Positions 1,498 to 14,200 of a DNA stretch of 64,000 bases are shown in pieces (position 1 is the first letter of the stretch; each line of letters begins with the position of its first letter). Source of the DNA: a virus; IMG/VR virus record IMGVR_UViG_3300023184_003735, positions 1 to 64,000 of that record. The stretch is one strand, 5' to 3'. Under the pieces are notes generated by a model. The model made no database searches and was not told the DNA's origin. It saw only the letters and a program-made list of their open reading frames with translations. A program made the translations under genes and the position numbers.

Positions 1498-1528
1498 AAG
1501 GAAACTCCTATAGGTTAAAGTGTAATGC

Positions 1529-1534
1529 TATTTA
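1529..1534 (-). promoter_or_regulatory. Late-promoter-like TAAATA box
   Basis: GTAAATA on the minus strand upstream of the 281-aa gene; matches the core of the T4 late promoter TATAAATA. Confidence 0.5.
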
Positions 1535-1582
1535 CACACTAGGAGAAAAAGACGCGGTTTATGGGGTCAAAATGACGATAAA

Positions 1583-1804
1583 TTACATCGCCGGTGCTTC
1601 TGGGGCAGGTGCATACTGTTGACGCACCAATTTGAGTTTTTCTTTGTATTCAACTGTGCGTACATCATTCATCTTGCGCAGTTTGTTCAACTGACGTAGA
1701 GTTAGATGCGTTTTACGCAGATCGCCCAGTTGTGTTTGGCTGTTGTCTTGTGCTAGATCCTGATAGGCTTCAGGATCTTTGTGCCAAAATTCATTTAATA
1801 TCAT
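1583..1804 (-). CDS. Small head-module protein of unknown function
   Basis: 73-aa ORF packed between the portal and the core protein; CATAAATA box 5 nt upstream. Confidence 0.75.
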   Translation of the reverse strand: MILNEFWHKDPEAYQDLAQDNSQTQLGDLRKTHLTLRQLNKLRKMNDVRTVEYKEKLKLVRQQYAPAPEAPAM

Positions 1805-6386: not shown

Positions 6387-7232
6387 ATGCCCCAAACTGC
6401 GAACCCGCTAAAACAATTTTTTAGACAACCGGCCATTTATTTGAGCCTGCCTTCAGGCGGCCAATACTGGGACACAAGGGTGCTACAGATACCACAAACA
6501 AAAGAAATACCAGTGTACCCAATGACTGCTATCGATGAAATAACCTATCGAACTCCAGATGCGTTGTTCAACGGACAGGCCGTGGTCAATGTGATCCAAA
6601 GTTGCATTCCTGCAATCAGAGATGCTTGGCAAGTTCCCGGAGTAGATTTAAATGCCATCTTGATTGGTATTAGAATTGCCAGTTACGGACACGAAATGGA
6701 AATGAGCAGTAAATGCCCTTCCTGTGAAGAAGTTAATGATTTTAGTTTAGATTTGCGTACTATATTAGACTCACTTGAGTGCCCAGACTATTCCAAGACC
6801 ATGATCTATGGTGATCTTGAAATTACCTTGTGCCCTATTGCATACAAGCATCAAAATCAAACCAATATTGAACAATACAATCAGCAACGCAGTATTCAAC
6901 AGATTCAAGCTAGTGAAACTTTGACTGATGAACAAAAAATTGAACGCTTGAATCAAGCATTGCAAACAATCACTCAACTCACAATTGAAACTCTCAAATA
7001 TAGTATCGCCAGCATACGTACTCCTGATACTGTTGTGACCGAGTCAGATCATATTCAAGAGTTTCTTGTGAACTGTGATAGAAAATTATACCAAGACGTC
7101 AGAGATCATATCATAAGTTTGCGTGAGCAAAGCGATATCAAACCATTTGATACCACATGCCCCAGTTGTAACCACAAATGGAAGCAAACACTCACCCTGG
7201 ATCAAGCCGCTTTTTTCGGGGTCGCCTCCTAA
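6387..7232 (+). CDS. Baseplate hub assembly chaperone, T4 gp26-like
   Basis: 281 aa with LPSGG, VYPMTAIDE and DLNAILIGIRIASYG motifs, two CPSC zinc knuckles and a terminal FF motif. Confidence 0.8.
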   Translation: MPQTANPLKQFFRQPAIYLSLPSGGQYWDTRVLQIPQTKEIPVYPMTAIDEITYRTPDALFNGQAVVNVIQSCIPAIRDAWQVPGVDLNAILIGIRIASYGHEMEMSSKCPSCEEVNDFSLDLRTILDSLECPDYSKTMIYGDLEITLCPIAYKHQNQTNIEQYNQQRSIQQIQASETLTDEQKIERLNQALQTITQLTIETLKYSIASIRTPDTVVTESDHIQEFLVNCDRKLYQDVRDHIISLREQSDIKPFDTTCPSCNHKWKQTLTLDQAAFFGVAS

Positions 7233-8380: not shown

Positions 8381-8716
8381 ATGGATTTATACACAATTTG
8401 GGCGGACAAAGAAGGCGATATCTCAGACTTGGACTGGGTTAACGGAATGAAGAGTTTTTTTGATCACTTGATCACAGAAGGCAAAATGGAAAGTTACAGA
8501 ATCACAAGATGCAAGATGGGATTCCGTAGCATTGCTGACATGCCAGAGTGGATGATTATTATGGAGTTCACAGGCATGGCTCAGATGGATTCAGCATTCA
8601 AACGAGTAGCACCGCTCGAAGGTGAACTCGAAGTCAAGCACAAAAGTTTCAATCAATTTGTTTCGGGCAACATACAACATGCACTTTTCCGCGACTGGCC
8701 AGATACTAATCTATGA
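8381..8716 (+). CDS. DUF6614-like dimeric alpha-beta barrel protein
   Basis: 111 aa; MDLY...HL..EG...YRITR.K.GF...EF..MAQMDSAF...ALFRDWPD pattern resembles DUF6614; GGAG RBS. Confidence 0.55.
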   Translation: MDLYTIWADKEGDISDLDWVNGMKSFFDHLITEGKMESYRITRCKMGFRSIADMPEWMIIMEFTGMAQMDSAFKRVAPLEGELEVKHKSFNQFVSGNIQHALFRDWPDTNL

Positions 8717-8722
8717 GTTAGA

Positions 8723-8783
8723 AGACTTACTACGTAAGTCTGTTGTTTTCGCTATCGCTCAACAACTGATTGTTTTTTTTTTT
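8723..8783 (+). terminator. Twin hairpins followed by a T11 tract; probable terminator of the plus-strand unit, possibly also ssDNA hairpins
   Basis: AGACTTAC-TAC-GTAAGTCT (8723-8741), GTTGTT...AACAAC (8742-8766), T11 at 8773-8783. Confidence 0.5.
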
Positions 8784-8799
8784 AATTTGTTTGAATTAA

Positions 8800-9140
8800 G
8801 TATCATCCAGATTAATTGGTCATAATTCACCGTATGCACGGTGAACATGAGAGAGCATCATCCGAGTAGCACAGTCATCTAATAGTAATGAGATTGTAGT
8901 TTCCTACGCGGAGGCGGTTGACCGGTACCCCCTACTCAAGCTTCACATATCAACGGAACCCTAGTAACCCGATATTAGATCCAAGTCCTATAAGCATGGG
9001 GTGTATCTTCTTCACAGAGCCCAAACCATTTGTTGCCTTAAGTTAGCAATTGCCTTTGACGCCCAAGTCTAGACCGGGTATTTCACCGTTCTTCAATGGG
9101 GCTGAGCCAAAACACCCAGCACGTTGTCGTGATCGCTGCC
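8800..9140 (-). ncRNA. Candidate large structured non-coding RNA, family not recognised
   Basis: No credible ORF; at least six stems, several of which pair fully only on the minus strand through G-U wobbles; GAAA tetraloop; two long-range complementarities; two ATGAC-N10-GGATGAT boxes. Confidence 0.6.
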
Positions 9141-9142
9141 TA

Positions 9143-10153
9143 TTAAATAATTTTTAAGAGAAAATCTGCGTATAATTTATGCTGTAATGGACCTGGGTGA
9201 TCTTCATCTGAACCCAGATCTTTGAACTGTCTAGCAAGAATATTTAAATCATGTATATAGTTATATTCATACAGATAATGATGGTATTCGGGAACGTTTG
9301 CAAGATATCTGATGACACTCTCACTGGTAAGCAACCCGATTATAACTAATCTTGCCTGGCATTTTTTACAAAAATTGATTGCTCTTTTGATAGAATATAT
9401 ATGATTATAAAACGTGTTTTCTAAAAGTAATGTTTTTTCTGGCACAATAGATTCCAAATTTTTTCCTTCATAACACATACTGGTTATGCCCTTTAACAAT
9501 TTATTTTCGTGTACAAAAGTTAATCTTTCACCGGCGGTGAGTCCCCAAATCACAAGATCACCGGGACGTATGTCAGACCTTGTGATCTGATCAGATGCCC
9601 AATCTATAGCAGATCCATTGCGAGTTAAAAAGCTACATGGTAAATTTAATGCTTCTGCAACATGATACATGTAACGTTCATTTTCTTTGACACCCAATCC
9701 ATGTGTAAAACTGCATCCAACACCCCACAGTTGTGGGTCATCAGTTTTACGAGTATCTACTAGTTCAATTGGATCTGGTACCAAATTGTCGCGATCAAAA
9801 TTATAAATTTTCTTGTCTCTAGGTAAAAATAATAGTAAATTTTCTGTTAAGCCTTGAATACATGTCGTTGGAAAAATTACATCTATGTTTTTTTTATCAG
9901 ACCAGACAACCGGAGGACAATAAAATATATTGTCAGCAAGTAATAATATTTTCAATAATACAGTAGAATCTTTTGGCAAATATCCCAGTGAAGTGTATAT
10001 AGTTGTATCATTAAGTAAATCTTCCTGTAAAATTTTTTTATAGTTATTAGAATCTACTAGGAATGCCGTTGAATCATGTTGTTGGGCAGAAACAACCAGG
10101 CTGTTGTCTGTATCTCCAATAAACACAGTTAACACATAATTTGATTTTTTCAT
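9143..10153 (-). CDS. SGNH/GDSL-hydrolase-like protein with N-terminal extension
   Basis: 336 aa; GCSFTHG block I-like motif and DEDHPG block V-like motif; visibly AT-rich. Confidence 0.65.
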   Translation of the reverse strand: MKKSNYVLTVFIGDTDNSLVVSAQQHDSTAFLVDSNNYKKILQEDLLNDTTIYTSLGYLPKDSTVLLKILLLADNIFYCPPVVWSDKKNIDVIFPTTCIQGLTENLLLFLPRDKKIYNFDRDNLVPDPIELVDTRKTDDPQLWGVGCSFTHGLGVKENERYMYHVAEALNLPCSFLTRNGSAIDWASDQITRSDIRPGDLVIWGLTAGERLTFVHENKLLKGITSMCYEGKNLESIVPEKTLLLENTFYNHIYSIKRAINFCKKCQARLVIIGLLTSESVIRYLANVPEYHHYLYEYNYIHDLNILARQFKDLGSDEDHPGPLQHKLYADFLLKII

Positions 10154-10157
10154 TCTT

Positions 10158-10586
10158 TTAAATTTTGTTTAGTATATGCGAACCATGCACCCGAACTTGT
10201 ATGTGGCCGTTGTAATAATCTCTTGATTCTAAGACTCGTCTTGAAAATTGTTCTCTTGCCTCGATATATGAGCATTCTGATTTAGAGTTACAATAATAAA
10301 GTATTTCTCTGGTAAAGTTTTCGGTGCCTAGTTTGATTACGTCTGCGGTTAATTCTGGGCTTGACCCATAGTACTCTCTCCAATCACTGTCGATCTTGGA
10401 GCGTATCTTCTTGCGCTTCTTTGTGCCGTTTTTTTGTTTTACAGTCCGGTATGTTGTCTTGCTAAATTTTGCTAATTTTTTGCCTATGTACTTGCGTCCA
10501 GTGAGATTACATGTGATCAAGTAAACAAATCCAACACACTCTTCGGGCAATGTCTCAACTGGGGTGTCTTGATATAGCCATGTCAT
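10158..10586 (-). CDS. Stand-alone GIY-YIG family endonuclease
   Basis: 142 aa; GFVYLIT...KYIGKK, YYGSS, Glu helix (YIEAREQ) and YYN; no appended DNA-binding domains; basic insert KQKNGTKKRKKIR. Confidence 0.85.
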   Translation of the reverse strand: MTWLYQDTPVETLPEECVGFVYLITCNLTGRKYIGKKLAKFSKTTYRTVKQKNGTKKRKKIRSKIDSDWREYYGSSPELTADVIKLGTENFTREILYYCNSKSECSYIEAREQFSRRVLESRDYYNGHIQVRVHGSHILNKI

Positions 10587-10617: not shown

Positions 10618-11427
10618 TTATCTCCATTGCTGCCAATCTGTTAATTTTTCTATTAAAAAGTTTGCAAATGCATGATTACTGTCAGGACCTGGGTGTAAAT
10701 TGTCATTGCCTTTGTCTAAATAAAAGTCTGTTTTAAATCCTTTATCCAAATTAAGCCAGTTATATGTTAACCCACCAGTATTTTTGTAATCTAAATGAAT
10801 TTTGTCGTATAGTTGAAAATATTCTCTGTCATTTCTAGTTTTGGCATTTAGCGACTGCTGAGTAAGTGGTGTGGTATCACTAGGTAGCCTAGATGGAGAT
10901 ATTATATGTTCAAAGTAATTTTTATCAATACGTAAAATAGAATTAATAAAAAAAACTTTGATGTTAAATCGTGTCGCTGACTGTGCAATTAGTCTAGTGT
11001 AATGTAAAATTTTTAGTATATCATAATGGAAATGTGTTAAATCAAAGAATCTATCTCGAATATTTTCAACATAACTTCCTGGAACAGTAATATTAGGGTT
11101 TATTTTAATATCTTCGATCTTAGATCGTTCCAAATATATCTCTGTTTGGTAAAGTTCAACACTTGGATTTACACACATTCTTTTAGGATTAGTGAACGCA
11201 ACAAAAAAATATTTACATGTTTGGTTGTTTATTATGTTATCCAACGCAGACAAAAATATATCTTCGTTGGTAGCCCCTCCTTTGCCTGCGTTGATCAATT
11301 TGGTTATTGACAATTGTGGAATTGATTGATGTAAAATATTAACCCAAAGATTTGGATCAGAATCTTCTAATTCAAGACCGATGCCTTTTGTATACGAACA
11401 TCCGCAAAAAACTGTTGATTCACTCAT
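10618..11427 (-). CDS. SGNH/GDSL-hydrolase-like protein
   Basis: 269 aa; FCGCSYTKG, NAGKGGATN and DNLHPG motifs; visibly AT-rich. Confidence 0.7.
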   Translation of the reverse strand: MSESTVFCGCSYTKGIGLELEDSDPNLWVNILHQSIPQLSITKLINAGKGGATNEDIFLSALDNIINNQTCKYFFVAFTNPKRMCVNPSVELYQTEIYLERSKIEDIKINPNITVPGSYVENIRDRFFDLTHFHYDILKILHYTRLIAQSATRFNIKVFFINSILRIDKNYFEHIISPSRLPSDTTPLTQQSLNAKTRNDREYFQLYDKIHLDYKNTGGLTYNWLNLDKGFKTDFYLDKGNDNLHPGPDSNHAFANFLIEKLTDWQQWR

Positions 11428-13187
11428 GCTAATTCAACATCCGTGTTGTAACTGGTAAAGCCGTTCTCTTTGATTACTTTGAGAATGTTCTCCACACGTC
11501 CAGCCAGTTCATCTCTATGTGACACAAGCCAGATTGATTTGTGACGTTCACGACTCATCTTCTTCAGCAAAGCCAAGGCGTTCTCTACGCCTTGTGTGTC
11601 CAAGCCGTTGTCGATCAATTCGTCAATGAACAACAAATTAATAGGACTGTATAAACTTTCCCAAACATCGCGGAACGCCCAACTCATACTAAGGATCAGT
11701 CTGTTACGTTCGCCACGACTCAAGTTGTCAAAGTCCAATTCACGACCCAGTTCCTCAATACTCACAGTCAAATCATTTTGGAACTTCACAGTATGTGGCA
11801 ATCCAATGCGATCTAAATAGTGTGTGAGTCTTGCATTTAGATAACTCAAATTCTGATCAATAATCTTCTTGCGCACAAATGAATCTTTTGATGTCAACAG
11901 TTTGAGCAAGAAGTCTTGATGATCTTGAACACGAGTAAGTTCGTTTAAGGCATCGTATGTTACAACTTGTAACGCCTGGCCTTGCATATCTGAGATTTGT
12001 TCTTCATAAGGATCCACATCTGCTTGTCTTGCAGTTAAATCTTTACGTAAAGTTTCAACAGTATTGCGATGATTCAGGGCTTGTTCTAACGAATCATAAA
12101 ACACAGTGGGTGCTGTGCCTAATGTACCAATCTGGGCAATAGTATCCTCATGCCCTTGACGTTGTGTGTCATTGGCTAAAAGTTGTAGTGCTGTTTCTTG
12201 TACCAAGGCCTGTTTGGCCTGTTTTAATTCATCTTGTTTGTCATCGTGTAAGTCTTGCCCACATGAGTGACATCTATGAGCATCTAATGCCACAATCTCA
12301 GTTTTGAGTTTATCTAATAACTTGTTTAGTTTTGTATCGTCTGCGTCAATTTGACGAATGTAACGGGTGGCATCGTCTAAGGCTTTTTTCTTCGCATGAA
12401 ATGCTTCTAGATCTCTATGTGCTTGTACTTCAGCATCAATGTCAATATGTTCAAGGTCTGCAATGGCTTGTTCTAGTTTGCCCACGTCTTCGTCACGTCG
12501 GGCAATCCAAAGACGTTGACGTTTACGCAGACTTTCAATCTGTTCTTCAATACGCTTGTTGGCTTCTTGAACAGCACGTATGCGAAATTCTTCTGCTTGT
12601 ATAGCATCTTTGGTTTGACGATTGAGTTCTTTAATAGCATCGGCACGTTCACTCAGCAAGGTAATGCCCAACAACTGCTCAATAATTGTGCGTTGGTCAT
12701 TGGCTTTCAAACTAAGGAACGGTTCTGTATATGTGTTCAGCGCCAGCACATGTCGGAACATATCGTGGCTCATATTCATCACACGTTCGACAGCATCTTG
12801 TGTTTCTCTTGAATCGCCTTGTGCTTCGTCTTCGGCAGCCCGGTGTTCGTTGTTGACATAAAATCGCAACACGTTGGGTTTACGTCCGCGCTCGATTCTG
12901 TATTCTTGCCCGTTGACTGAGAAGTCCAGACTAACCAACATGTTCTTGCCGTTGGTTTTGTTTACTAGATTGTCTTTGCGGATGTTGCTTAGTGCTTGTC
13001 CATACAGGGCATAACTTAACGCATTGATGATTGTGGTCTTGCCTGTGCCGTTGCGACTACCATCGCCACCTAGATCCAAGTTCTCGCCCAAGACTAAAGT
13101 GAGATCATTACGGTCAAAGTCAATGGCCTGCGTTGCCGCACCCACACTCATAAAGTTCTTAACAGTTAGATTTTTTATGCTTATCAT
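11424..13187 (-). CDS. gp46: Recombination endonuclease ATPase subunit (gp46, SbcC/Rad50-like)
   Basis: Walker A NGTGKT, central CHSC zinc hook, LSRGE signature, Walker B LLFIDE, H-loop VSH. Confidence 0.96.
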   Translation of the reverse strand: MISIKNLTVKNFMSVGAATQAIDFDRNDLTLVLGENLDLGGDGSRNGTGKTTIINALSYALYGQALSNIRKDNLVNKTNGKNMLVSLDFSVNGQEYRIERGRKPNVLRFYVNNEHRAAEDEAQGDSRETQDAVERVMNMSHDMFRHVLALNTYTEPFLSLKANDQRTIIEQLLGITLLSERADAIKELNRQTKDAIQAEEFRIRAVQEANKRIEEQIESLRKRQRLWIARRDEDVGKLEQAIADLEHIDIDAEVQAHRDLEAFHAKKKALDDATRYIRQIDADDTKLNKLLDKLKTEIVALDAHRCHSCGQDLHDDKQDELKQAKQALVQETALQLLANDTQRQGHEDTIAQIGTLGTAPTVFYDSLEQALNHRNTVETLRKDLTARQADVDPYEEQISDMQGQALQVVTYDALNELTRVQDHQDFLLKLLTSKDSFVRKKIIDQNLSYLNARLTHYLDRIGLPHTVKFQNDLTVSIEELGRELDFDNLSRGERNRLILSMSWAFRDVWESLYSPINLLFIDELIDNGLDTQGVENALALLKKMSRERHKSIWLVSHRDELAGRVENILKVIKENGFTSYNTDVELA

Positions 13188-14200
13188 AGTGTCTGGTAAA
13201 TCTTCAACAGTAGTTTGTTGTCGTAAAATTCTGATTCAATGTTGGTAATTTGATCTGTAACAATTTGATCCACAGATTCAAATTTGACTTCGCCAGGAGC
13301 CATGTCTGTATCTACAGATGAATTCTTGTTGGGTATCAAGGCCATCTCTCGCAAGCCATAGTCCCGGATGTAAGTTTCTTTAATGAAGTTGGCCTCTTCA
13401 TATGATATTTCGATGTCTAACTGCACACGCACATGCATGTCTTTTGCAAGCAAGGTGGGTGCGTTGTCAATGATACTGGCTAATCCTAGCACACGATATC
13501 TAGGTTGATCAGGCCAGGCATGATACACAGGAACCTGTCCCCACTCAATGACAGTTAGACCACGATCATCGTCGCCGGCATCTGCATAGTTGTGCGGAAA
13601 GCAATTGCCGATATAGGTAATGTTCTTTTTGGTCTGACGTTTGTGAAAGTGTCCAGTGAACACATGTTCAAAGTTGTTGAAGTCTTCTCTGCGTACTTCG
13701 CCATGATCCGGCATCTCTACCATGGCATTCATCAAGTAGCCGGGCAGTTCAAAATGACCAAACATGTACCGGCCTTTTAGTTTGGGAATACGCTTGTGGT
13801 CATCACCGCATAGCCAAGGTGCAATAACAACGTCACCATTGTCAAACCAATCATTGCAAATATGTACACGAGGGAGATGTTTTGCCCATTCAACACTTTG
13901 GATATCCCTCTTATCGCGATAATAAAGATCATGGTTGCCAGGAATAAAGTACACGCTGTCAAAGTTGTCATTCATGTGCTCCAAGGCCCGTAGGCTGTAG
14001 TTTAGGGTAACAATATTTAGGCTGGCACGGTTGTTGTGCCAATCGCCCAAGAACAAACAGGTTTCACAACCTTCTGCTTTTGCTTTTGCAGTTGCCCATT
14101 TTACAAAGTTCAAGCAGTCTTCGTTGTGTTGAACACTGTTACTTTTTAGGCCAAAGTGAATGTCTGTGAAGACCGCGGCTTTGCGAAATAGGTTAGTCAT
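13184..14200 (-). CDS. gp47: Recombination endonuclease nuclease subunit (gp47, SbcD/Mre11-like)
   Basis: Metallophosphoesterase motifs DIHFG, LGD, GNHD, GHF and GHFH. Confidence 0.96.
   Translation of the reverse strand: MTNLFRKAAVFTDIHFGLKSNSVQHNEDCLNFVKWATAKAKAEGCETCLFLGDWHNNRASLNIVTLNYSLRALEHMNDNFDSVYFIPGNHDLYYRDKRDIQSVEWAKHLPRVHICNDWFDNGDVVIAPWLCGDDHKRIPKLKGRYMFGHFELPGYLMNAMVEMPDHGEVRREDFNNFEHVFTGHFHKRQTKKNITYIGNCFPHNYADAGDDDRGLTVIEWGQVPVYHAWPDQPRYRVLGLASIIDNAPTLLAKDMHVRVQLDIEISYEEANFIKETYIRDYGLREMALIPNKNSSVDTDMAPGEVKFESVDQIVTDQITNIESEFYDNKLLLKIYQTL

What the first reader, a model, noticed from the sequence alone, without database searches (positions are those of the whole stretch)
8717..9142. 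About 425 bp non-coding element that folds like a large structured RNA on the minus strand
Seen: this is the only long gap in an otherwise wall-to-wall coding window, and it lies at the 3' end of the gp55-47-46-GIY-YIG unit. On the minus strand it gives GCUGGGU/GCUCAGC (9120-9101), CCCGG/UUGGG (9078-9062), UUGCU/GGCAA (9049-9033), GACUUG/CGGGUU (about 8987-8966), GGGGGU/GCCUCC (8932-8910), GUAG-GAAA-CUAC (8907-8896, GNRA loop) and a perfect 8-bp stem (8845-8826). There are two long-range complementarities: AACGG/CCGUU (9090-9086 with 8956-8952) and GAGUAG/CUACUC (8937-8932 with 8869-8864). Most stems contain G-U pairs that would be A-C mismatches on the plus strand, which points to RNA and fixes the strand. 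It lacks the hallmarks I would expect of tRNA, tmRNA, RNase P or group I/II introns. Inference: an unclassified phage ncRNA, such as a ribozyme, a nuclease partner or a replication-priming RNA.
Basis: partly seen in the sequence, partly recalled or inferred. Interest (0 to 1): 0.88.

Follow-up and report, generated by a model that had tools for sequence, protein, structure and literature searches.

The report
Twin-box structured RNA of lake phages
The gene-free gap encodes a real, intricately folded and knotted non-coding RNA of about 330 bases that is shared by many uncultured T4-like lake phages, is missing from RNA catalogues, carries the same 7-letter word twice, and has no known job.

Summary
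The 426-base gap (8717-9142) is real and holds a structured RNA gene on the minus strand (core 9128-8799). One sequence alone folds no better than shuffles (z -1.47). Relatives settle it: on 121 distinct copies from uncultured phage contigs, 97.2% of 8650 cells pair against 88.6% in shuffles. 41 of 72 pairs show changes on both sides, and one helix is a pseudoknot. G-U pairs outnumber A-C 1120 to 23, which fixes the strand. One local stem and the AACGG/CCGUU long-range pairing are refuted, and GAGUAG/CUACUC has no covariation. Rfam has no match. A sister RNA behind the same GIY-YIG gene carries Rfam Polynucleobacter-1 as its front part. Two 7-base boxes 55 bases apart are identical in 119 of 121 copies although the word differs among phages. 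The RNA lies downstream of a small nuclease gene in 98 of 98 testable loci: GIY-YIG in 95, PD-(D/E)XK in 3. Nothing shows that it guides the nuclease. Function is unknown. This scan has found the same RNA family on other genomes before.

The parts
8799..9128 (-). Conserved core of the structured RNA ('type A' twin-box RNA), read 9128 down to 8799. The 5' leader may reach 9142 and the 3' end probably lies at or beyond 8794.
   Evidence: 149 near-full-length copies give 120 distinct sequences; with the window these are the 121 rows of A4. Identity to the window is 71-96%, median 85%. 97.2% of cells pair and 41 of 72 pairs change on both sides.
9058..9128 (-). 5' domain, part 1. Helix Ha (9128-9126 with 9060-9058) encloses hairpin Hb (9119-9114 with 9107-9102), helix Hc (9100-9097 with 9065-9062) and hairpin Hd (9092-9090/9073-9071 plus 9088-9086/9077-9075).
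   Evidence: Ha: G-C 103 / C-G 16 and A-U 113 / G-C 8. Hc: 4 of 4 pairs change on both sides. Hd: C-G 95 / U-A 13 / A-U 12. Hb: 6 of 6 pairs covary, but 78.5% of cells pair because MAFFT misaligns a subgroup of about 30 sequences.
9033..9049 (-). Hairpin He (UUGCU / GGCAA)
   Evidence: outer pair U-A 75, C-G 22; 4 of 5 pairs change on both sides.
8997..9023 (-). Hairpin Hf (9023-9020 with 9000-8997, plus 9016-9015 with 9003-9002)
   Evidence: 9023:8997 is U-A 61, G-C 43, C-G 11; 9016:9002 is U-A 103, C-G 18.
8958..8995 (-). Long hairpin Hg. The inner 7 bp are 8987-8981 with 8972-8966. The outer part, 8995-8988 with 8964-8958, barely varies. The loop carries AUCU (8980-8977).
   Evidence: helix 9: 4 of 14 pairs change on both sides, and several G-U pairs are conserved in 118-121 of 121 copies.
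8877..8980 (-). Pseudoknot Hh: the loop AUCU (8980-8977) pairs with AGAU (8880-8877) about 100 bases downstream.
   Evidence: 8978:8879 is C-G 58, U-A 55, U-G 6, not paired 2.
8950..8965 (-). Near-invariant stretch ACUAGGGUUCCGUUGA (at least 97% conserved in every column)
   Evidence: alignment.
8889..8938 (-). Helix Hi (UGAG 8938-8935 with CUCA 8892-8889). It encloses Hj (8932-8928 with 8914-8910, plus 8924-8922 with 8917-8915; near-invariant run 8931-8911) and the GNRA hairpin Hk (8907-8904 with 8899-8896).
   Evidence: Hi is U-A 66 / A-U 51; Hj outer pair is G-C 96 / A-U 25; Hk has A-U 57, G-C 25, U-A 23, C-G 11. The Hk loop is GNRA in 103 of 121 copies.
8857..8878 (-). Box unit 1: AUGAC (8878-8874), 10 variable bases, then twin box GGAUGAU (8863-8857)
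   Evidence: Sequence. The 7-mer equals that of unit 2 in 119 of 121 copies, and 9 different matched words occur.
8826..8845 (-). Hairpin Hl (UUCACCGU / ACGGUGAA) between the two box units
   Evidence: G-C 111 / C-G 9 and U-A 112 / G-C 4 / G-U 3. Sister types have other stems at the same place: GGAACC/GGUUCC in L020 and UUUGCCC/GGGCAAA in L035.
8802..8823 (-). Box unit 2: AUGAC (8823-8819), 10 variable bases ending in AUCU, then twin box GGAUGAU (8808-8802). In the window, AAUUAA (8817-8812) can pair with UUAAUU (8799-8794) and would close a loop around the box.
   Evidence: Sequence. The closing stem is my reading of this one sequence. Close relatives with the same 10 bases allow only 4 of the 6 pairs (alignment), so it is inferred, not shown.
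8723..8766 (+). Two hairpins (8723-8741 and 8742-8766) that read as plus-strand terminators of the DUF6614 operon. They lie outside the RNA core.
   Evidence: The terminator scan finds 8723-8741 followed by GTTGTTTTCG on the + strand. Both stems covary. The A11/T11 tract 8773-8783 is not conserved among relatives.
9143..10153 (-). 336-aa ORF with no family match, inserted here between the nuclease gene and the RNA. This arrangement is uncommon.
   Evidence: Relatives of this ORF sit directly upstream of the RNA in 10 of the loci tabulated.
10158..10586 (-). 142-aa minimal GIY-YIG nuclease gene (SegE-type GIY-YIG domain only), the usual upstream neighbour of this RNA
   Evidence: Pfam PF19835, E 5.1e-33, covering the whole profile. 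It lies within 150 nt upstream of the RNA in 74 of 98 loci and 176-1980 nt upstream in 21 more.
8381..8716 (+). DUF6614 gene, convergent with the RNA
   Evidence: Pfam PF20319, E 1.9e-21.

Best explanation
The gap is a gene for a non-coding RNA of about 330-350 nt, folded on the minus strand. It has at least twelve helices, one of them a pseudoknot, and two near-invariant unpaired or irregular stretches.

It belongs to an uncatalogued superfamily of 'twin-box' RNAs of uncultured freshwater T4-like phages.
- These RNAs lie just downstream of a small nuclease gene at the end of the gp47-gp46 gene run, so they are probably transcribed with it. That step is inferred.
- At least three types share a 3' module: box, hairpin, UGAC, about 10 bases, box.
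- The types differ in their 5' domains. The window holds type A. Type C carries Rfam Polynucleobacter-1 there.

Most likely mechanism, inferred and not shown: the RNA acts in trans as a folded scaffold or decoy. Its conserved core binds something, and its two identical 7-nt boxes are read twice by one and the same partner, such as a dimeric protein or a repeated nucleic-acid site whose specificity changes between phage lineages.

My odds:
- real structured RNA on the minus strand, about 0.97
- member of the twin-box superfamily, about 0.9
- boxes read by one common partner in trans, about 0.4.

The confidence figure given for this explanation is for the whole statement, mechanism included.
For: Shown:
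- Covariation on 121 distinct copies: 97.2% of 8650 cells pair against 88.6% in shuffles. 41 of 72 pairs and 745 cells change on both sides, against 26-87 cells when the partners are slid by 1-3 columns.
- The pseudoknot pair 8978:8879 is C-G 58 / U-A 55.
- G-U 1120 against A-C 23 fixes the strand.
- No ORF over 67 aa touches the gap.
- The RNA is 85% identical over 106 nt in L002, where the neighbouring protein is only 48% identical.
- The element is in 57 of 82 loci fetched through flanking proteins.
- Twin 7-mers are identical in 119 of 121 copies across 9 different matched words. They are also identical in 14 of 14 type B RNAs and 4 of 5 type C RNAs.
- The type A profile hits the 3' part of the five type C RNAs at E 1e-6 to 1e-12. 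Three of these were scanned against Rfam, and their 5' parts score 114-118 bits on RF01718.
- Contigs of four RNA libraries from four studies cover 8870-9150. This shows presence only, not strand or level.

Inferred: action in trans, and a common reader of the two boxes. The boxes change at five of seven positions, including transversions, yet stay identical. Pairing to an invariant U would not enforce that.
Against: - One sequence alone folds no better than shuffles (z -1.47).
- No experiment or raw-read data shows a discrete minus-strand transcript, its ends or its level. The RNA-library evidence is contigs only, and DNA carry-over is possible.
- I derived the structure from the same alignment on which I counted it, so the shuffle control is partly circular. 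The slid controls are less so.
- No partner was found:
  - GIY-YIG residues track the box state no better than they track unrelated RNA positions.
  - The box words and their complements are not clearly enriched elsewhere in 1.02 Mb of flanking DNA: 89 and 71 occurrences against about 62 expected per strand, with no consistent place.
- The tight position 5-150 nt behind a nuclease gene, with no promoter-like site found between them, fits a 3'-UTR role as well as a trans-acting one.
- Thermodynamic accessibility of the boxes is intermediate, 0.3-0.7.
Confidence: 0.45

Rival explanations
1. Cis-acting 3' untranslated element of the nuclease operon. The folded RNA stays attached to, or is cut from, the mRNA of the upstream gene. 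It controls that mRNA's stability, 3' end formation or translation, and has no target of its own.
For: The RNA starts within 150 nt of the stop codon of the upstream GIY-YIG gene in 74 of 98 loci, and 5 nt behind a PD-(D/E)XK gene in L146. No sigma-70-like promoter site lies between the upstream gene and the RNA in the window. It sits at a convergent junction, just before terminators of the opposite operon.
Against: About 330 nt with a pseudoknot, a GNRA loop and 16- and 21-nt near-invariant runs is far more than a stabiliser or terminator needs. The RNA is kept intact when other genes are inserted between it and the nuclease gene, as in the window and in 21 of 98 loci. The twin-box identity has no obvious cis role.
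Confidence: 0.2
2. The nearness to nucleases is selfish, not functional. The RNA gene is a highly conserved sequence beside which free-standing homing-type nuclease genes (GIY-YIG, PD-(D/E)XK) settle and spread, as seg and mob genes do beside conserved T4 genes. The T4 comparison is recalled knowledge. This would explain the neighbourhood but not what the RNA does.
For: Two unrelated nuclease folds occupy the same slot upstream of the same RNA type: GIY-YIG in 95 of 98 loci and PDDEXK_15 in 3 of 98. PHROG relatives of the GIY-YIG gene are labelled homing endonuclease. Extra genes come and go at this junction.
Against: A nuclease gene is present in 98 of 98 testable loci rather than sporadically. 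The GIY-YIG protein is intact and 65-96% identical across loci. Its family is a widespread, syntenic gene of cultured cyanophages and of phage Melnitz, next to nrd genes, where no such RNA follows. That looks like a resident phage gene, not a mobile one.
Confidence: 0.12
3. RNA partner of the upstream nuclease. The RNA binds the small nuclease, which lacks a DNA-binding domain. It either aims the nuclease, with the variable boxes as specificity words, or restrains it.
For: A small nuclease gene lies upstream on the same strand in 98 of 98 loci. The GIY-YIG protein is the catalytic domain alone, 142 aa covering the whole 123-position Pfam profile, with a lysine- and arginine-rich insert. The boxes change fast yet stay paired.
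Against: The same RNA type follows two unrelated nuclease folds, which a specific protein-RNA fit would not predict. No GIY-YIG column tracks the box state better than it tracks control RNA positions: best normalised MI 0.34 and 0.54 for the boxes against 0.54 for a control. Relatives of the nuclease at 36-50% identity in cultured phages have no such RNA behind them. Seven bases are too few to aim a nuclease in a genome, and no excess of box words or complements was found nearby.
Confidence: 0.06
4. Ribozyme. The conserved core catalyses a reaction such as self-cleavage or processing at the two identical boxes.
For: The size, the pseudoknot, the GNRA loop and the long invariant unpaired stretches are typical of catalytic or ligand-binding cores. 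Two identical words would suit two identical processing sites.
Against: No match to any ribozyme family of Rfam at E up to 10. There are no exons to splice, because a convergent gene lies downstream. The only hint of a fixed RNA end is a sequencing-adapter remnant on one contig at 8870, which is not in a box.
Confidence: 0.06
5. DNA-level element (replication origin, packaging site or protein-binding array) rather than an RNA.
For: It lies in a convergent intergenic region with an A/T tract and hairpins nearby.
Against: Conserved G-U pairs (1120 cells) against 23 A-C cells mean the helices exist on one strand only, as RNA. Read on the plus strand, pairing falls from 97.2% to 84.5%. The A/T tract is not conserved, and the nearby hairpins read as plus-strand terminators.
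Confidence: 0.02

Closest known systems
Polynucleobacter-1 RNA motif (Rfam RF01718; Weinberg et al. 2010, PMC2864571)
   Same: Three sister RNAs (L035, L045, L081) occupy the same place behind the same GIY-YIG gene and carry this 141-position motif as their 5' domain, at 114-118 bits against a cut-off of 37. They and two further type C RNAs (L050, L076) share the 3' half with the window's RNA: nhmmer E 1e-6 to 1e-12, the GGUACCGG-CAACCGCC helix and the box module. The paper's table lists the motif for Burkholderiales and fresh water or estuary, as a likely RNA and possibly cis-regulatory, with function open (one passage seen).
   Different: The window's RNA does not match the model at gathering score or at E up to 10, and the motif is nowhere in the 124-kb record. 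Its 5' domain (helices Ha to Hg) has another layout. The catalogued motif covers only about a third of the type C RNA. It contains neither the twin boxes nor the pseudoknot described here.
Large ornate bacterial and phage RNAs of unknown function (GOLLD, ROOL, OLE, raiA, HEARO; Rfam families)
   Same: It is a long, elaborately folded, widely conserved non-coding RNA found by comparative analysis. It comes from lake metagenomes and phages, and its function is unknown. GOLLD, ROOL and OLE form homo-oligomers according to the abstract of PMC12286853 (search listing only). Oligomerisation is therefore worth testing here.
   Different: There is no sequence or structure match to any of them in Rfam 15. 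At about 330 nt it is smaller than GOLLD or ROOL (sizes recalled). The twin identical boxes are not a described feature of those RNAs, as far as I recall.
Guide or scaffold RNAs encoded next to their nuclease (omega RNA of TnpB and IscB, formerly HEARO)
   Same: A structured RNA of a few hundred bases is encoded directly beside a small nuclease gene on the same strand, probably on one transcript.
   Different: The neighbour is a GIY-YIG or PD-(D/E)XK enzyme, not a RuvC or HNH protein. The same RNA goes with two unrelated folds. There is no transposon end and no long variable guide segment. No co-variation with the protein was found. Membership is not claimed.
Protein-sponge RNAs with repeated short loop motifs (CsrB, RsmZ type; recalled knowledge, not tested against a model)
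   Same: The same short word is repeated within one folded RNA, which is what a bivalent or dimeric reader would need. Some copies read ACUCGGAUGAU, which resembles the recalled CsrA SELEX word.
   Different: Only two copies are present. The first G of GGA is A in 64 of the 121 copies, which should abolish CsrA-type binding. The word differs between phages.

Membership tests
Polynucleobacter-1 RNA (Rfam RF01718) | Covariance-model score at or above the gathering score (37 bits) | tested here: not met
   No hit in the window at gathering score. None at E up to 10 over 8500-9400. None in the whole 124-kb record. As a positive control, L035, L045 and L081 score 114-118 bits.
Polynucleobacter-1 RNA (Rfam RF01718) | Homology to the RNAs that contain the motif, outside the motif itself | tested here: met
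   The type A nhmmer profile hits the 3' part (profile positions about 190-330) of L035, L045, L050, L076 and L081 at E 1.1e-6 to 1.3e-12. The shared letters are visible.
   The window has GGAUGAU at 8863-8857 and at 8808-8802, with hairpin 8845-8826 and AUGAC 8823-8819 between them. The words are identical in 119 of 121 type A copies, 14 of 14 type B and 4 of 5 type C.
   In the window, the GIY-YIG gene 10158-10586 is 1030 nt upstream, with one inserted ORF between. Among 98 loci, 74 have it within 150 nt, 21 at 176-1980 nt, and 3 have PDDEXK_15 instead.
Group I intron | Match to the intron model, and an interrupted host gene with exons on both sides | tested here: not met
   No Rfam hit even at E up to 10. 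Downstream on the RNA's strand lies only the antisense of a convergent gene. Neighbours on both sides vary between loci. Splicing itself was not tested.
tRNA / tmRNA | ARAGORN detection of a cloverleaf or of a tRNA-like domain with a tag reading frame | tested here: not met
   0 genes in the whole window.
RNase P RNA, 6S, GOLLD, ROOL, OLE, HEARO and the other 4227 Rfam families | Covariance-model match | tested here: not met
   0 matches at gathering score in 64 kb. Only chance-level hits at E 0.55-7.3 around the gap.
Box C/D guide RNA | C (RUGAUGA) and D (CUGA) boxes in the order C-guide-D'-C'-guide-D (consensus recalled), and a model match | tested here: not met
   The best C/D-type hit is sR6, 19.3 bits against a gathering score of 60, E 3.4. 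Here each variable segment lies between UGAC (5') and GAUGAU (3'), which is the reverse order.
Nuclease-bound guide/scaffold RNA (omega-RNA type) | The RNA scaffold goes with, and co-evolves with, one nuclease family | tested here: not met
   The same RNA type follows GIY-YIG and PDDEXK_15 genes. Box states do not track any GIY-YIG column above control level. Binding was not testable here.
Intrinsic terminator (for hairpin 8723-8741 only) | G+C-containing stem followed by a T-run on the transcribed strand | tested here: met
   On the plus strand there is an 8-bp stem followed by GTTGTTTTCG. This belongs to the DUF6614 operon, not to the RNA core.

The most novel reading that the evidence does not exclude
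The RNA is a working partner of whichever small, domain-poor nuclease is encoded upstream (GIY-YIG or PD-(D/E)XK). Its two always-identical, fast-changing 7-nt boxes would be a duplicated, programmable recognition word that aims or gates cutting of nucleic acid. A variant of this reading is that the boxes capture two copies of a host RNA loop. That would be a new kind of RNA-associated nuclease system in abundant lake phages.
Probability: 0.05. Interest if true: 0.93.

Novelty: new variant of a known kind. Interest (0 to 1): 0.68.

Why it matters
Large, elaborately folded non-coding RNAs are rare. Each class solved so far (ribozymes, riboswitches, omega RNAs, RNA-only cages) has opened new biochemistry.

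This one is widespread among uncultured T4-like phage contigs, most of which were found in lake and other freshwater metagenome runs.

It is absent from Rfam 15. It also shows that the orphan Polynucleobacter-1 motif of 2010 is only the front third of a larger RNA.

The twin boxes stay identical within an RNA while differing between phages. This is an unusual evolutionary signal: identity, not complementarity.

If the fixed position behind small nucleases proves functional, the RNA would bear on how phages control DNA-cutting enzymes.

Tried and rejected
**Single-sequence folding.** Not significant on either strand. It carries no weight either way once covariation is in hand.

**Known RNA classes.** Rfam at gathering score and at E up to 10 and ARAGORN found nothing usable.

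**Cultured relatives.**
- blastn of the element and tblastn of DUF6614 against 50,697 phage records found no match.
- The GIY-YIG protein finds 446 records, all under 60% identity.
- In Melnitz and P-RSM4 the gene is followed by a 148-nt gap and by a short 137-nt ORF overlapping a tRNA-Arg gene, respectively. No profile hit was found in either locus.

**Small coding gene.** Rejected. The AUG of box 1 opens a 13-codon frame in the window, but many relatives have AUA there, and the linker length varies by non-multiples of three.

**RNAalifold helices.** CGUC/GAUG (9061-9058 with 8807-8804) is rejected, because 9060-9058 covaries with 9128-9126 instead. RGAU/AUCU (8863-8860 with 8812-8809) pairs in 118-120 of 121 type A copies but never covaries. 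By my reading, it cannot form in type B. It is left open.

**Box-pairing ideas.**
- Both boxes alternately pairing with AUURU (8826-8822): a complement of 5 nt or more is there in 97 of 111 copies of the four main classes, but not in the rarer classes. Not supported as a general rule.
- The palindrome AUCU-RGAU as a dimer site: broken in type B, by my reading.
- A kink-turn or C/D reading of the boxes: the order of the boxes is wrong, and the G-A letters are not conserved.

**Linker pairing.** UCAU with AUGA of box unit 2 seems compensated in L129 (UCGU/ACGA) and L133 (ACAU/AUGU), read. The alignment columns are too gappy to count it.

**Search for a partner.**
- Coupling of GIY-YIG residues to box state: none above control level.
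- Box words or their complements elsewhere in the loci: no clear excess.
- Predicted accessibility of the boxes: uninformative.

**Host.** The only bacterial-genome hits are two contigs of one MAG labelled Haliscomenobacter. Both carry the phage genes GIY-YIG and DUF6614, so they look like binned phage DNA and say nothing about the host. The other 9 of the 11 pattern matches in genomes are chance.

**RNA libraries.** No contig covers 9151-9400. This is a hole, not a finding.

**Literature.** Four searches found no description of this RNA. Only PMC2864571 mentions Polynucleobacter-1. Of that paper I saw the search listing and one table passage. Its supplement, which may describe the motif's gene context, is closed and was not requested. 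All other papers were seen only as listings and abstract starts.

**Not done.** No covariance model was built (a model of 330 positions would exceed the stated time limit), no R-scape was run, and gp55 was not checked.
Full report
**What is there.** The window is part of a 124,183-base IMG/VR virus record with T4-type genes:
- gp47-like and gp46-like (SbcD- and SbcC-like) genes at 13184-14200 and 11424-13187
- a baseplate hub gene at 6387-7232
- a 142-aa GIY-YIG gene at 10158-10586.

The finding's interval, 8717-9142, is the space between two convergent ORFs: a DUF6614 gene (8381-8716, +) and a 336-aa ORF without family (9143-10153, -). It is the longest stretch of the window without an ORF of 90 aa or more.

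**Is it more than chance?** Alone, the sequence does not stand out. The minus strand folds at -114.2 kcal/mol against -105.7 +/- 5.8 for shuffles (z -1.47, 7 of 100 shuffles as good). The plus strand gives z -0.94.

Relatives decide the matter.
- Loci fetched through the flanking proteins carry the element in 57 of 82 cases.
- A profile search gives 179 hits in 201 loci, 131 of them full length.
- In L002 the neighbouring protein is 48% identical, but the RNA is 85% identical over the 106 nt before the contig ends.

**Structure.** I aligned 121 distinct full-length copies (A4; 71-96% identical to the window). I looked for covarying column pairs and then counted a 72-pair structure with the counting tool.
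- 97.2% of 8650 cells pair, against 88.6% in shuffles (0 of 500 shuffles reach it).
- 41 of 72 pairs and 745 cells change on both sides. With the 3' partners slid by 1-3 columns the figures are 10-16 pairs and 26-87 cells.
- Caveat: the structure was derived from this alignment.

The helices are listed under parts. The best supported are:
- the hairpin 9119-9102
- 9128-9126 with 9060-9058
- 9100-9097 with 9065-9062
- the hairpin 9092-9071
- 9023-8997
- the GNRA hairpin 8907-8896 (loop GNRA in 103 of 121)
- 8938-8935 with 8892-8889
- a pseudoknot between the loop AUCU 8980-8977 and AGAU 8880-8877 (C-G 58, U-A 55).

Two runs are at least 97% conserved in every column: 8965-8950 and 8931-8911. 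G-U cells number 1120 against 23 A-C. Read on the plus strand, pairing would fall to 84.5%.

Six of seven local stems hold.
- CCCGG/UUGGG is wrong: it breaks uncompensated in 12-23 of 121 copies.
- AACGG/CCGUU is wrong: AACGG covaries with the nearby CCGGU instead.
- GAGUAG/CUACUC never varies in its four kept pairs, fails in the other two, and competes with a helix that does covary.

**Relatives and catalogue.** Rfam 15 has no match in the window, and ARAGORN finds none.

Loci that have the DUF6614 and GIY-YIG genes but lack this element carry other ORF-poor sequences of 430-490 nt behind the GIY-YIG gene.
- 'Type C' comprises five loci. I scanned three of them against Rfam (L035, L045, L081), and each begins with Rfam Polynucleobacter-1 at 114-118 bits. 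All five share their 3' part with the window's RNA at E 1e-6 to 1e-12.
- 'Type B' (14 loci) shares only the 3' box module.

The 2010 paper lists Polynucleobacter-1 for Burkholderiales and fresh water or estuary, with function open. I saw one table passage. No other paper in the library names it.

**The twin boxes.** The 3' module reads AUGAC-N10-GGAUGAU, then a hairpin, then AUGAC-N10-GGAUGAU, with a period of 55 nt. An earlier first-stage note on this window pointed to this layout.
- The two 7-mers are identical in 119 of 121 copies, although 9 different matched words occur. Examples are AGAUGAU (39 copies), GGAUAAU (31), AGAUAAU (25), GGAUGAU (16), AGAUGAA, ACAUGAA, AGAUCAA, AGACGAA and GGAUGAG.
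- Type B has ACAUGAA twice in 14 of 14 RNAs. Type C has AGAUGAA or GGAUGAAG twice in 4 of 5.

This is identity, not complementarity. I could not explain it by any internal pairing that holds in all classes.

**Neighbourhood.** I took the loci fetched by the RNA pattern alone that have at least 1500 nt upstream. That gives 98 loci; 17 more were too short.
- The GIY-YIG gene lies within 150 nt upstream on the same strand in 74.
- It lies 176-1980 nt upstream, with other genes between, in 21. The window, with its 336-aa ORF, is of this kind.
- It is absent in 3. All 3 have instead a 167-170-aa PDDEXK_15 nuclease gene upstream on the same strand, directly adjacent in L146.

The GIY-YIG family is very large. 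It is a common gene of cultured cyanophages and of Methylophilales phage Melnitz (best 50% identity), often mislabelled NAD synthetase. No such RNA follows it there. No GIY-YIG residue tracks the box state above control level.

**Expression.** Contigs of four metatranscriptome runs from four studies cover 8870-9150 and the DUF6614 gene at 80% likeness or more. These are contigs, so they show presence in RNA libraries only. They give no strand, ends or level, and DNA carry-over is possible.

**Reading.**
- Shown: a conserved, pseudoknotted RNA fold on the minus strand; its family relations; the twin-box identity; and its fixed place behind a small nuclease gene.
- Inferred: that it is co-transcribed with the upstream gene, that it acts in trans, and that the boxes are read by one common partner.
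- The rivals are a cis 3'-UTR role, selfish nuclease genes settling beside a conserved RNA gene, a true nuclease partner, and a ribozyme. They are weighed under Rival explanations.

Notes of this scan show that the same family was found and followed up on other genomes before, with like conclusions. I reached the covariation, the box identity and the Polynucleobacter-1 link from my own calls (28, 44, 62) before reading those follow-ups. The lead to look at the GIY-less loci came partly from them.

Noticed in passing
L146:2293-2805 (-), L109:9422-9925 (-), L162:1011-1517 (-): In the 3 of 98 loci without a GIY-YIG gene upstream of the RNA, a PDDEXK_15 'phage putative PDDEXK endonuclease' gene (167-170 aa, E 1e-22 to 1e-24) sits upstream on the same strand. 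A nuclease of a different fold thus fills the same slot.
   Followed up: partly
window 9143-10153 (-): A 336-aa ORF without any Pfam or PHROG match is inserted between the GIY-YIG gene and the RNA. By eye it has GCSFTHG and DHPG motifs that recall SGNH/GDSL hydrolases. Its last codons resemble the 3' end of the GIY-YIG gene of relatives.
   Followed up: no
phage records (e.g. NC_015283.1 165230-165685): The minimal GIY-YIG family (Pfam SegE_GIY-YIG, phrog_447) is annotated as 'NAD synthetase' in many cyanophage records. This looks like a propagated mislabel.
   Followed up: no
L204 and L207 (two contigs of 148 and 183 kb of one MAG labelled Haliscomenobacter): Both contigs carry the RNA flanked by the phage GIY-YIG and DUF6614 genes, so they look like T4-like phage genomes binned into a bacterial MAG.
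   Followed up: partly
L031, L073, L175 (hairpin equivalent to window 8907-8896): An insertion of about 40 nt replaces the GNRA hairpin loop in three copies. L118 and L174 have other expansions there. This is a tolerated expansion site.
   Followed up: no
L035, L050, L076, L045 (type C RNAs): Besides the twin 7-mers, type C RNAs repeat a second word, AAAGACGC, 69-70 nt apart.
   Followed up: no
many loci (e.g. L123, L144, L158, L162, L201, L202): Many contigs begin or end inside the RNA gene. This is probably an assembly break at a sequence shared by co-occurring strains.
   Followed up: no
window 8870: One RNA-library contig (run X18, 205 nt, depth 23) carries a sequencing-adapter remnant joined at 8870, so a library fragment ended there. 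A single record is no evidence of an RNA end.
   Followed up: no
window 1519-1804: This is the second-longest stretch of the window without an ORF of 90 aa or more (286 bases). It was not examined.
   Followed up: no
window 10582-10586 and relatives: The GIY-YIG gene starts AUGAC(A/U)UGG, the same five letters as the AUGAC word of both box units. This may be chance.
   Followed up: no
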